Assembly (NCBI RefSeq): GCF_003334385.1 | Contig: NZ_QOWN01000046.1 | Source: Escherichia coli | GTDB taxonomy: Bacteria > Pseudomonadota > Gammaproteobacteria > Enterobacterales > Enterobacteriaceae | DNA: 34,434 nt | Reading direction: 5' to 3' (one strand) | Part shown: positions 17,752 through 19,916 of the stretch, piece after piece | Position numbering within the stretch: the first letter of the stretch is position 1 | Layout: every line of letters begins with the position of its first letter | Translations under genes and position numbers: made by a program | The notes under the pieces: generated by a model | What the model saw: only the letters and a program-made list of their open reading frames with translations | Told to the model about the DNA's origin: nothing | The model's database searches: none

Positions 17752-18296
17752 GATTTACGCACTCTTGTAAGCCTTGTGGACGGTTTCGAGGCGGGCAAAA
17801 ACCGACAACTCCTGCAAACAGGATTAATGGCTGGAAAATATATTACATAAGGATGTATCTGTGGCAAGAGTGAAGATAAGCAGTTGAATAGATCGTTATA
17901 TTTGATAAGACAGCATATTATTCTATATCTGATGTTGTGTGCGGGATATTAGATCGTTTAAAAAAATTCGGCGATCTCTTCTACTGGAAAAGAAGAAAAA
18001 AGCAGCATAAAAGATCGTTTGTGAAATTGTTCATTTTTTTGACACAGTTCAAAAAAACGACGCTTTTTAGGGGGTTAAAGAGGGCAACTGTAACCCTGAG
18101 AAATCGTGTCGGCTTTTCAAAGCGGTGGAAAAGGGGTATATTGCGGATCGTTATTCAGTGGCTTTTGGGATCCTCGCGATCCGGAAAGTCAGAAAACGGC
18201 AGGATGCGCCATAAGGCATTCAGGATGTATGGCAGAAACGACGGCTGTTTGCCGGGGCCGGAAGGCTGAAAAAAGTTTCAGAAGACCATAAAGGAA

Positions 18297-18352
18297 AACC
18301 CCCATAATCTTCTTATCGAACTTGGCGGAACGTAGAGAAGATTATGGGGGCC
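18297..18352 (-). ncRNA. inc: Inc RNA/RNAI-type antisense RNA region (stem-loop I) of the replication control system; exact transcript ends not determined
   Basis: Long perfect stem (ACCCCCATAATCTTCT / AGAAGATTATGGGGG) whose loop contains TTGGCG, the hexanucleotide recalled for IncI-alpha/IncB antisense-target kissing loops; about 25 nt upstream of the leader peptide gene. Confidence 0.5.
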
Positions 18353-18376
18353 TCACAGAATACGGGGTAAGTATAT

Positions 18377-18466
18377 ATGAAACCGTGTCAGAGATTCAAC
18401 CCTTTGCAGTGCATTAACGCACGGCAATCTGTTCCCGCCATAAGCGACAGCTTGTGGCGGCCCTGA
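18377..18466 (+). CDS. repY: Replication leader peptide (repY/tap-like), translationally coupled to repA
   Basis: 29-codon ORF ([29 protein letters not shown]) whose stop overlaps the repA start region; a CGCC element about 10-20 nt upstream of the repA start could pair with GGCG in the stem-loop I loop (pseudoknot model). Confidence 0.6.
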
Positions 18467-19326
18467 ACCAGACCTCATTTACTGAAAGCACATACCGTCA
18501 GGTAAAGAACCCGAATCCGGTGTTCACACCCCGTGAAGATGCCGGAACGCTGAAGTTCTGCGAAAAACTGATGGAAAAGGCCGTGGGCTTCACCTCCCGT
18601 TTTGATTTTGCCGCGCATGTGGCGTATGCCCGTTCGCGCGGCCTGCGCCGGCGTATGCCGCCGGTGCTGCGCCGCCGGGCGATTGATGCGCTGCTGCAGG
18701 GGCTGTGTTTCCACTATGATCCGCTGGCCAACCGCGTGCAGTGCTCCATCACCACGCTGGCCATTGAGTGCGGACTGGCGACGGAGTCTGAGGCCGGGAA
18801 ACTCTCCATCACCCGTGCCACCCGTGCCCTGAAGTTCCTGTCTGAGCTGGGGCTGATAACCTACCAGACGGAATACGACCCGACAATTGGCTGTAACATC
18901 CCGACCGACATCACGTTCACGCCGGCACTGTTTGACTCACTCGATATCTCAGAAGAGGCAGTGGCTTCTGCACGCCGCAGCCGCGTGGAATGGGAAAACA
19001 GGCTGCGCAAAAAGCAGGGGCTGGATGCGCTGGGTATGGATGAACTGATAGCGAGGGCCTGGCGTTTTGTGCGCGAGCGTTTCCGCAGTTATCAGGCAGA
19101 GCTTAAGTCCCACGGCATGAAACGTGCCCGTGCGCGCCGCGATGCAGGCAGGCCCCGTCAGGACATTGTCACCCTGGTGAAACGGCAGCTGACACGTGAA
19201 ATCGCGGAAGGGCGTTTCCGCGGAAGCCTGGAGGCCGTGAAGCGCGAAATCGACCGTCGCGTGAAGGAACGCATGATAATGTCGCGGAACAACAACTACA
19301 CACGGCTGGCCACTGCCTCACCCTGA
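18454..19326 (+). CDS. repA: Replication initiator RepA/RepZ (IncFII / IncI-complex RepA1 family); GTG start
   Basis: 290 aa; the motif [15 protein letters not shown]...[20 protein letters not shown]...[48 protein letters not shown] closely matches what I recall of IncFII/IncI RepA proteins. Confidence 0.9.
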
Positions 19327-19501
19327 GTTTGACCTCATCTGAATAATCCGGCCTGCGCCGGAGGCTTCCGCACGTCTGAAGCCCGGCGACGCACAAAAAA
19401 GCAGCACAGCACACAAAAAACAGCCTCATCATCTGCCTTCCGGCTCGCCTTGCTCCCCCTGTTTTTCACGCAAAACACGTCTCACTGACGGGGAATTCTG
19501 T

Positions 19502-19510
19502 TTATCCACA
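19502..19510 (+). promoter_or_regulatory. DnaA box (TTATCCACA) within the presumptive origin downstream of repA
   Basis: Perfect 9-mer consensus about 180 bp past the repA stop, where this replicon family places its origin. Confidence 0.45.
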
Positions 19511-19916
19511 TTTAACTGCAAGGGACTTCTCCGTAAGGTTACAACCGTTAATGCTATAAAGCGCCAGCCGCAGGCGTTACAGGGTGCAATGTTTCTTTTA
19601 AACCCCAGTACTGTATTTCCTTTAAACTACTTAATTACTTCCATTTAAAAAAAAAGACCTATTCAGTGCCTGTCCTGTGGACAGACAAATATGCACCTCC
19701 CACGCTGACGCGCGGGCCCCGAACCTCACCGTTCTGAAACCACAACAAAAAGACATCAGGAATAAAAACACCACACAAACGCAGCACCGTGCCCACCCCT
19801 CATAACTGAAAAGCGAGGCCGCCCCCGCCCGAAGGGCGGGAACAACATCGCTTTTAATTATGAATGTTGTAACTACATTATCATCGCTGTCAGTCTTCTG
19901 GCTGGATGTTCTCAGT

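What the first reader, a model, noticed from the sequence alone, without database searches (positions are those of the whole stretch)
18290..19520. Complete antisense-RNA/leader-peptide/pseudoknot replication control module with downstream DnaA box
The parts of an IncI-complex/IncB-type control circuit are all readable: a stem-loop with loop hexamer TTGGCG, a 29-codon leader ORF whose stop overlaps the GTG start region of repA, a CGCC element near the repA ribosome-binding site positioned to pair with the loop GGCG, and a perfect DnaA box about 180 bp past repA. This places the replicon in the I-complex rather than classical FII despite the FII-like RepA length, which is useful for incompatibility prediction.
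Basis: partly seen in the sequence, partly recalled or inferred. Interest (0 to 1): 0.35.

Follow-up and report, generated by a model that had tools for sequence, protein, structure and literature searches.

The report
IncZ-type plasmid replication control region
This is the ordinary, long-known replication unit of an IncZ/K2-type I-complex plasmid: an IncI-style antisense-RNA, leader-peptide and pseudoknot switch joined to an IncFII-type initiator gene and origin.

Summary
These are the stem-loop with loop TTGGCG, the 29-codon leader ending inside the start of repA, CGCC upstream of the GTG start, and a DnaA box 176 nt past repA.

The I-complex reading holds. Rfam PK-repZ scores 168 bits against a threshold of 44, while the IncFII CopA model fails at 37.5 against 60. 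The leader is 22/29 identical to R64 RepY and unlike Tap. There is no CopB. The antisense promoter hexamers are invariant in 11 I-complex plasmids. The flanks are I-type pil/tra backbone, and the nearest plasmids are typed IncK2/Z, MOBP, MPF_I.

RepA is FII-type by sequence, not only by length: 86.7% identical to R100 RepA1 and 24% to R64 RepZ. The origin, including the DnaA box, aligns with R100 oriR.

The replicon is therefore a mosaic. I-complex control sequence runs to about 18458, and FII-type repA and ori occupy about 18493-19693. This is the known IncZ arrangement (repA 98.7% identical to pO26-CRL125). The antisense RNA differs at four interior-loop bases from the IncZ reference, and seven public plasmids carry the identical 60 nt spanning the stem-loop.

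Already known; low interest.

The parts
18114..18142 (+). Candidate promoter for the rep mRNA (TTTTCA-17-TATATT); weak, unverified
   Evidence: Consensus scan. This 50-nt bin is 100% identical to pCT. No transcript data.
18299..18350 (+). Stem-loop I of the rep mRNA leader, the target of the antisense RNA. The apical loop carries UUGGCG at 18322-18327; loop bases UGGCGG at 18323-18328 are the proximal pseudoknot bases.
   Evidence: MFE fold. Rfam PK-repZ alignment. Seven pairs with compensatory changes in 11 plasmids.
18288..18363 (-). Antisense RNA gene (RNAI / Inc RNA), about 73-76 nt: a single long hairpin with an interior loop, followed by a U-rich tail. The ends are inferred.
   Evidence: Fold of -30.3 kcal/mol, z = -6.09. 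The same architecture appears in the IncZ, IncK2, IncB/O-typed and IncI1 homologues. The start is inferred as 7 nt after the -10 hexamer.
18370..18399 (-). Promoter of the antisense RNA: -35 TTGAAT (18399-18394), 18-nt spacer, -10 TATACT (18375-18370)
   Evidence: Scan. All 12 hexamer positions are invariant in 11 I-complex sequences.
18377..18466 (+). Leader peptide ORF (repY/repB homologue), 29 codons, [29 protein letters not shown]. Its stop lies 8 nt past the repA GTG.
   Evidence: 22/29 identical to R64 RepY, with the same length and stop position; unrelated to the 24-aa Tap of R100.
18404..18427 (+). Middle hairpin inside the leader ORF
   Evidence: MFE fold. Two pairs with compensatory changes.
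18435..18460 (+). Stem-loop III: CCGCCAUAAGC / GACA / GCUUGUGGCGG. It holds the distal pseudoknot bases CCGCCA (18435-18440) in its 5' arm and the repA GUG start (18454-18456) in its 3' arm.
   Evidence: MFE fold. 10 of 11 pairs are invariant across 11 plasmids. The six loop-to-distal pairs are 100% pairable and invariant.
18454..19326 (+). repA, 290 aa, IncFII-family initiator of the IncZ/K2 subtype
   Evidence: 86.7% aa identity to R100 RepA1, 23.9% to R64 RepZ, 99.0% to pO26-CRL125. TIGR03474 incFII_RepA scores 563.5 against a cut-off of 446.9. R64 and pCT RepZ do not hit that model. At the nucleotide level, 98.7% to pO26-CRL125, 98.6% to pDV45 and 99.5% to pOT-ESBL-0589.
18459..18492 (.). 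Left mosaic junction. I-complex-like sequence ends at about 18458 and R100-like sequence starts at about 18493. Codons 2-13 of repA match neither.
19327..19700 (+). FII-type region downstream of repA, including the origin, with the DnaA box TTATCCACA at 19502-19510
   Evidence: Alignment with R100 and pO26-CRL125 has mean column identity 93%, and the DnaA box is invariant. Bins are 74-94% identical to R100 and at background level to pCT and R64.
19693..20222 (.). Right boundary. I-complex identity resumes at about 19693 (97.9% to pCT). Within this, 19800-20200 is shared at 84-100% with R100 as well, making it a plausible crossover substrate.

Best explanation
This is the basic replicon of an IncZ-type (IncK2/Z subgroup) I-complex conjugative plasmid, and it is a mosaic. 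The control module at about 18100-18458 is of the IncI1/B/O/K kind. The initiator gene and origin at about 18493-19693 are of the IncFII kind.

Inferred mechanism, carried over from the ColIb-P9 and IncB models:
1. The rep mRNA carries stem-loop I, the 29-codon leader, and stem-loop III.
2. Stem-loop III locks up both the repA GUG start and the bases CCGCCA.
3. Ribosomes translating the leader run through stem-loop III and stop at 18464-18466. This frees CCGCCA to pair with UGGCGG in the stem-loop I loop.
4. The resulting pseudoknot, next to the repA start site, allows RepA translation.
5. A roughly 75-nt antisense RNA made from the minus-strand promoter at 18399-18370 kisses the same loop. 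It blocks the pseudoknot and covers the leader's ribosome-binding site, which sets copy number and incompatibility.
6. RepA then acts on the FII-type origin downstream, which includes the DnaA box.

What is shown here: the sequence elements, their conservation, the homology and the mosaic boundaries.
What is inferred: the transcripts, the translational coupling and the pseudoknot function.
For: - Rfam PK-repZ scores 168.2 bits (threshold 44) over 18291-18441, with CopA below threshold. Controls with R100, R64, pCT and pO26-CRL125 separate the two classes cleanly.
- The leader is 22/29 identical to R64 RepY, with the same length and stop position, and there is no CopB.
- Stem-loop I has seven compensatory pairs. 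Stem-loop III and the six pseudoknot pairs are invariant in 11 plasmids.
- The antisense promoter was found and is invariant. The antisense RNA folds as a single hairpin, like its I-complex homologues.
- 50-nt bin identities show pCT-like, then R100-like, then pCT/R64-like segments.
- RepA is 86.7% identical to R100 RepA1 and passes the incFII_RepA equivalog. The origin and DnaA box align with R100.
- repA is 98.6-99.5% identical to the IncZ and IncK2 references.
- The nearest plasmids are typed IncK2/Z, MOBP, MPF_I. The left flank is I-type pil/traC backbone at 99.3%.
- Literature: the IncZ replicon has repY, repZ and RNAI (PMC3817090). The IncK2/Z subgroup is defined by repZ (PMC6361801). 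FII and B/K/Z mosaicism is attributed to Praszkier 1991 (PMC5466382).
Against: - Nothing here shows the transcripts, the coupling or the pseudoknot working in this plasmid.
- The pseudoknot and stem-loop III pairs never vary, so covariation neither supports nor contradicts them.
- The rep mRNA promoter is only a weak consensus match.
- I could not read the primary IncZ paper (Praszkier 1991). My statement that it described the FII-like RepA rests on memory and on a secondary citation.
- Stem-loop III is a perfect 11-bp stem in the Z-type sequences but is interrupted in the I1/K1/B/O types. The quantitative behaviour may therefore differ.
Confidence: 0.9

Rival explanations
1. Classical IncFII control as in R1 and R100: a two-hairpin CopA RNA blocks translation of the Tap leader, RepA is made by simple translational coupling without a pseudoknot, and CopB represses the repA promoter.
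For: RepA and the origin are FII-type. The stem-loop gives a sub-threshold CopA match of 37.5 bits. R100 also has TTGGCG in its target loop.
Against: The CopA score is below the threshold of 60, whereas R100 scores 106. The leader is 29 aa and RepY-like, not the 24-aa Tap, and tblastn finds no CopB in the window. The antisense RNA folds as one hairpin. R100 has no CCGCCA upstream of its repA start. Nucleotide identity to R100 begins only at 18493.
Confidence: 0.03
2. The I-type elements are inherited, but the pseudoknot is dispensable in this chimera. The perfect 11-bp stem-loop III is opened by leader translation, and RepA is made by coupling alone. The antisense RNA would then act only on leader translation.
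For: Stem-loop III differs from the I1/K1/B/O form at one pair. The pseudoknot pairs show no covariation. I found no experiment on an IncZ pseudoknot in the papers I could read.
Against: All six pseudoknot pairs, and the spacing to the GUG, are strictly conserved in all 11 sequences, including the four with Z-type repA. The whole segment up to 18458 is shared with plasmids in which, from my memory of the literature, the pseudoknot is required.
Confidence: 0.05
3. An inactive remnant replicon carried by a plasmid that replicates from another origin.
For: Only 34 kb of the plasmid is visible. Some relatives carry a second replicon, for example IncFIB in pO104_H21.
Against: All ORFs and motifs are intact. 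Several near-identical plasmids are typed with IncK2/Z as their only replicon. No other rep gene appeared among the large ORFs of the right flank that were checked.
Confidence: 0.02

Closest known systems
IncZ replicon of pIE545 / pO26-CRL125 (NC_022996), in the IncK2/Z subgroup of the I-complex
   Same: Same architecture and near-identical sequence: 96.2% over 17752-20168, repA 98.7% at the nucleotide level and 99.0% at the protein level, a 29-codon leader, the same stem-loop III, and the same origin with its DnaA box.
   Different: Four substitutions in the antisense RNA, all at interior-loop positions of the hairpin. Five differences in the leader peptide. The downstream toxin-antitoxin and accessory genes differ.
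IncI1 ColIb-P9 / R64 repYZ-Inc RNA system (Rfam PK-repZ RF01087), and the IncB pMU720 repBA-RNAI system
   Same: Stem-loop I with the UUGGCG loop, a single-hairpin antisense RNA of about 70 nt with the same promoter hexamers, a 29-codon leader (22/29 identical), stem-loop III, and the CCGCCA/UGGCGG pseudoknot complementarity.
   Different: The initiator is 290 aa and only 24% identical to the 343-aa RepZ. There is no nucleotide similarity from 18493 to 19693, so the origin is different. The stem-loop I stem sequence differs by 9 edits from R64.
IncFII R100 / R1 replicon (CopA, CopB, Tap, RepA1, oriR)
   Same: RepA is 86.7% identical and passes the incFII_RepA equivalog. The downstream origin region, including the DnaA box, aligns at about 85%.
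   Different: No CopB, no Tap, and the CopA model is below threshold. The control region is not alignable beyond the hairpin core. A pseudoknot element is present here and absent in R100.

Membership tests
I-complex antisense / leader / pseudoknot control (Rfam PK-repZ RF01087) | Covariance-model match at or above the family's gathering score | tested here: met
   168.2 bits against 44, full model length 1-150, at 18291-18441. References R64, pCT and pO26-CRL125 score 174-195, and R100 gives no hit.
I-complex antisense / leader / pseudoknot control (Rfam PK-repZ RF01087) | Stem-loop I with 5'-UUGGCG-3' in the apical loop | tested here: met
   Fold, loop hexamer at 18322-18327, and seven compensatory pairs in the stem. 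The hexamer is also present in R100, so it is necessary but not discriminating.
I-complex antisense / leader / pseudoknot control (Rfam PK-repZ RF01087) | Single-hairpin antisense RNA of about 70 nt with its own promoter and terminator | tested here: inconclusive
   Promoter-like TTGAAT-18-TATACT, invariant in 11 plasmids. Hairpin plus U-tail fold. All the sequence signals are present, but the transcript itself cannot be observed with these tools.
I-complex antisense / leader / pseudoknot control (Rfam PK-repZ RF01087) | 29-codon leader ORF (repY/repB) whose stop lies just past the rep start codon | tested here: met
   ORF at 18377-18466, 22/29 identical to R64 RepY, with an identical stop position.
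I-complex antisense / leader / pseudoknot control (Rfam PK-repZ RF01087) | Stem-loop III sequestering the rep start, and distal bases complementary to the stem-loop I loop | tested here: met
   An 11-bp hairpin at 18435-18460 containing the GUG start. The six pairs between UGGCGG and CCGCCA are pairable in 11 of 11 sequences. The function of the pseudoknot is not testable here.
I-complex plasmids, IncI1 / B/O / K1 subgroups | RepZ-type initiator of 343 aa, with more than 95% repZ nucleotide identity within a subgroup (PMC6361801) | tested here: not met
   23.9% and 23.7% aa identity to R64 and pCT RepZ. No nucleotide similarity across repA.
IncK2/Z subgroup of the I-complex | More than 95% repZ/repA nucleotide identity to the subgroup reference pO26-CRL-125 (PMC6361801) | tested here: met
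   98.74% to pO26-CRL125, 98.63% to pDV45 and 99.54% to pOT-ESBL-0589. Nearest plasmids are typed IncK2/Z by MOB-suite.
IncK2/Z subgroup of the I-complex | I-type conjugation backbone (MOBP relaxase, MPF_I, thin-pilus pil genes) | tested here: met
   Window 1-17700 is 99.3% identical to plasmid segments annotated PilN, PilO2, PilV shufflon and traC. Relatives are typed MOBP and MPF_I.
IncZ incompatibility group proper (phenotype) | Incompatible with IncZ reference plasmids; antisense RNA functionally equivalent to that of pIE545 | not testable with these tools
   The antisense RNA is 4 edits from pO26-CRL125, 10 from the pOT-ESBL-0589 allele and 12 from pDV45 (IncK2). The four differences lie at the interior loop. 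In IncK plasmids, single changes at that position alter compatibility (PMC10724649).
Classical IncFII control (CopA / CopB / Tap) | CopA-like RNA at or above the Rfam gathering score | tested here: not met
   37.5 bits against 60. R100 scores 106.3.
Classical IncFII control (CopA / CopB / Tap) | 24-codon Tap leader and a CopB repressor gene upstream | tested here: not met
   The leader is unrelated to Tap, and tblastn with R100 CopB finds nothing in the window.
IncFII-family initiator and origin | RepA passing the incFII_RepA equivalog, and an oriR-like region with a DnaA box downstream | tested here: met
   TIGR03474 scores 563.5 against 446.9. The origin alignment with R100 keeps the DnaA box invariant.

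The most novel reading that the evidence does not exclude
The antisense RNA allele here may define a compatibility type separate from reference IncZ and from IncB/O. It differs from the IncZ reference at four interior-loop positions, and the 60 nt spanning its hairpin are identical in seven public plasmids. If so, plasmids typed together as 'IncK2/Z' or 'IncB/O/K/Z' would include a further unnamed subgroup able to coexist with the others.
Probability: 0.2. Interest if true: 0.25.

Novelty: already known. Interest (0 to 1): 0.1.

Why it matters
The practical value is for typing. Protein-based annotation labels this initiator 'incFII family RepA', which could lead to calling the plasmid IncF. 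Its copy-number control, its likely incompatibility behaviour and its backbone are all I-complex (IncZ/K2). Incompatibility in this group is set by a few bases of the antisense RNA, so the allele should be recorded. Nothing here changes current understanding of plasmid replication control.

Tried and rejected
- Classical FII control was tested and rejected (CopA model, Tap, CopB).
- Covariation support for stem-loop III and the pseudoknot was sought, but all those pairs are invariant, so the test says nothing.
- The statistical weight of the bare motifs was checked. TTGGCG and a single DnaA box are not beyond chance on their own.
- I tried to read the primary papers: Praszkier 1991 (PMC207792), Asano & Mizobuchi 1998 (PMC1170848) and Athanasopoulos 1999 (PMC93579). 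The first two are not held; the third request was never sent because the service was busy.
- One literature search also failed because the service was busy.
- The accessions AP005147, AP000342, KC340959 and KR905384 were not in the collection under those names. The RefSeq forms worked.
- p3521 coordinates 1-4000 did not contain the rep region. A B/O-typed plasmid, CP104418, was used instead.
- The 29-aa leader has no NCBIfam model.
- The rep mRNA promoter was not resolved beyond one weak consensus match.

Full report
**Observation.** Reading 17700-20400 and listing ORFs and motif positions confirms each element.
- An inverted repeat at 18299-18350 carries TTGGCG (18322-18327) at its tip.
- A 29-codon ORF runs from ATG 18377 to TGA 18464-18466.
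- A 290-codon ORF starts at GTG 18454 and ends at 19326, so the leader overlaps it by 13 nt.
- CGCC lies at 18436-18439.
- The only perfect DnaA box in the window, TTATCCACA, lies at 19502-19510, 176 nt after repA.

The bare motifs are not significant on their own. TTGGCG occurs 8 times against about 22 expected, and a DnaA box somewhere in the window arises in 25 of 100 shuffles. The ensemble is significant, as the following sections show.

**Control class.** An Rfam scan of 17000-21000 gives PK-repZ (RF01087) at 18291-18441. It scores 168.2 bits against a gathering score of 44, with E = 3.9e-39, over the full model. The IncFII CopA model reaches only 37.5 bits against 60, and PK-repBA 34.9 against 45.

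The same scan on references is a clean control. R100 gives CopA at 106 bits and no PK-repZ. R64, pCT and pO26-CRL125 give PK-repZ at 174-195 bits and no CopA.

The leader peptide, [29 protein letters not shown], is 22/29 identical to the R64 leader, with the same length and the same stop position. It is unrelated to the 24-aa Tap of R100. tblastn with R100 CopB finds nothing in the window.

R100 also has TTGGCG in its target loop and lacks CCGCCA upstream of its repA start. The hexamer therefore does not discriminate between the classes. The leader and the distal pseudoknot bases do.

**RNA structures.** The leader RNA (18291-18480) folds at -72.8 kcal/mol, z = -5.95. It forms stem-loop I (18299-18350), a hairpin at 18404-18427, and stem-loop III at 18435-18460. 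Stem-loop III is CCGCCAUAAGC / GACA / GCUUGUGGCGG, which encloses both CCGCCA and the GUG start.

The loop bases UGGCGG (18323-18328) are complementary to CCGCCA (18435-18440), and the 3' arm of stem-loop III mimics that loop sequence.

In an alignment of 11 I-complex control regions:
- stem-loop I has seven pairs with changes on both sides;
- the middle hairpin has two such pairs;
- stem-loop III and the six pseudoknot pairs never vary.

The last result is consistent with constraint but is not covariation evidence.

**Antisense RNA.** The minus strand has TTGAAT-18-TATACT at 18399-18370, and all twelve hexamer positions are invariant in the 11 sequences.

A transcript starting about 7 nt downstream would run from about 18363 to about 18288. 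It folds as one long hairpin with an interior loop and a U-rich tail, at -30.3 kcal/mol, z = -6.09. The IncZ, IncK2, IncB/O-typed and IncI1 homologues fold the same way. CopA of the FII type has two hairpins (my knowledge of the family). The transcript itself was not observed.

**Mosaic structure.** blastn against R64, pCT and R100 and 50-nt bin identities show three segments.
- 17768-18481 is pCT-like at 89% overall. The stem-loop I bin drops to 50%, as expected for an incompatibility determinant.
- 18493-19693 is R100-like at 85.6% overall, with bins of 72-96%. It is at background level against pCT and R64.
- From about 19693 the sequence is again pCT/R64-like, at 97.9% and 94.7%. Within this, 19800-20200 is also 84-100% identical to R100. 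That shared block could have served as the right-hand crossover.

On the left, Z-type and I-type sequences first differ at 18459, in codon 2 of repA. Codons 2-13 match neither parent.

**Initiator and origin.**
- RepA is 86.7% identical to R100 RepA1, 23.9% to R64 RepZ and 99.0% to the IncZ reference pO26-CRL125.
- It passes the NCBIfam incFII_RepA equivalog at 563.5 against 446.9. R64 and pCT RepZ hit only the broader RepA_IncFII_LM model.
- The 400 nt after repA align with R100 oriR and with pO26-CRL125, and the DnaA box is invariant.

The DnaA box is therefore part of the FII-type half, not of the I-type control module.

**Classification.**
- The closest plasmids (98.4-98.9% over 18100-19600) are E. 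coli and Shigella conjugative plasmids typed IncK2/Z, MOBP, MPF_I.
- repA is 98.7% identical to pO26-CRL125 (IncZ), 98.6% to pDV45 (IncK2) and 99.5% to pOT-ESBL-0589 (IncZ). All exceed the 95% subgroup criterion of PMC6361801.
- The left 17.7 kb of the window is I-type pil/shufflon/traC backbone at 99.3%.
- The right 14 kb is an accessory mosaic of IS3 elements, a DnaQ-like exonuclease and an ABC transporter cluster.

**Literature.** PMC3817090 describes the IncZ replicon of pO26-CRL125 as identical to that of pIE545, with RepY, RepZ and an I-complex RNAI. It also states that IncZ is compatible with IncI1 and IncK and incompatible with IncB. PMC5466382 cites Praszkier et al. 1991 for mosaicism between IncFII and the IncB/K/Z replicons. 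I recall that the 1991 paper reported the FII-like RepA of IncZ, but I could not read it.

**Antisense allele.**
- The 74-nt RNAI region is identical to that of CP061214.
- It is 3 edits from CP031920, 4 from pO26-CRL125, 9 from R64, 10 from the pOT-ESBL-0589/CP125065 allele, 12 from pDV45 and 16 from pCT.
- The identical 60 nt spanning the stem-loop occurs in seven PLSDB plasmids, and 23 more match at 95-99%, most of them differing at one base.
- The four differences from the IncZ reference fall at the interior loop of the hairpin. PMC10724649 reports that in IncK plasmids, top-loop and interior-loop bases decide compatibility, and that one change can suffice.

Whether this allele behaves as IncZ cannot be decided from sequence. 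This is the only open point, and it is a modest one.

**Mechanism.** The sequence determinants of the ColIb-P9/IncB switch are all present and conserved. The working model is therefore:
1. leader translation opens stem-loop III;
2. CCGCCA pairs with the stem-loop I loop, forming a pseudoknot that allows repA initiation;
3. the antisense RNA competes for the same loop and occludes the leader's ribosome-binding site;
4. RepA acts on the FII-type origin with DnaA.

The homology and the anatomy are shown here. The functional steps are inferred from the related systems and rest on my knowledge of that literature.

**Verdict.** The replicon is the known IncZ mosaic, so its initiator and origin are genuinely FII-type. 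The TTGGCG hexamer is not the discriminating feature. This is already known and of low interest.

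Noticed in passing
window 17890-18154: Four copies of AGATCGTT, each containing a GATC Dam site, lie upstream of the control region at about 17890, 17951, 18012 and 18146. The first three are spaced 61 nt apart and sit within longer imperfect direct repeats. Their function is unknown; they could be a regulator-binding or methylation-sensitive array near the rep mRNA promoter.
   Followed up: partly
window 17110-17751 (-): A 213-aa ORF lies divergent from the replicon. 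It has weak RfaH/NusG-like matches (39 bits, far below the curated cut-offs) and is annotated 'transcription termination factor NusG' in related plasmids. It is probably the I-complex transfer-operon antiterminator.
   Followed up: partly
window 19800-20200: A block downstream of the origin is 84-100% identical in R100 (IncFII), R64 (IncI1) and pCT (IncK1) alike. It overlaps the small minus-strand ORF annotated 'RepA4' in CP044022. It is a plausible homologous crossover site for swapping repA-ori cassettes between F and I plasmids.
   Followed up: partly
window 19800-19863: A GC-rich palindrome (AAAAGCGAGGCCGCCCCCGCCCGAAGGGCGGGAACAACATCGCTTTT) matches itself on the opposite strand in the R64 and pCT comparisons. 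It looks like a terminator downstream of the origin.
   Followed up: no
window 20233-20780 (+): A RelB/DinJ-like antitoxin (89 aa) and a RelE/StbE-family toxin (93 aa) form a pair with a 4-nt overlap, immediately downstream of the replicon. Different relatives carry different toxin-antitoxin pairs at this position (Phd/YefM-RelE in CP061214 and pDV45).
   Followed up: partly
window 20820-34434: The accessory region has no close full-length match in PLSDB; the best place covers 35%. It holds a DnaQ-like 3'-5' exonuclease (20820-21668), two IS3-family transposases (26169-27185 and 33213-33902), and a minus-strand cluster at 28529-32147 made of an ABC-transporter ATPase and three ORFs with no NCBIfam hit.
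   Followed up: partly
L017 (MZ690483.1, Klebsiella pKP8) 401-464: An IncFIB/IncFII-typed Klebsiella plasmid matches only the stem-loop I portion (69 nt at 79.7%). This illustrates the shared ancestry of the FII CopT and I-complex stem-loop I hairpins.
   Followed up: no
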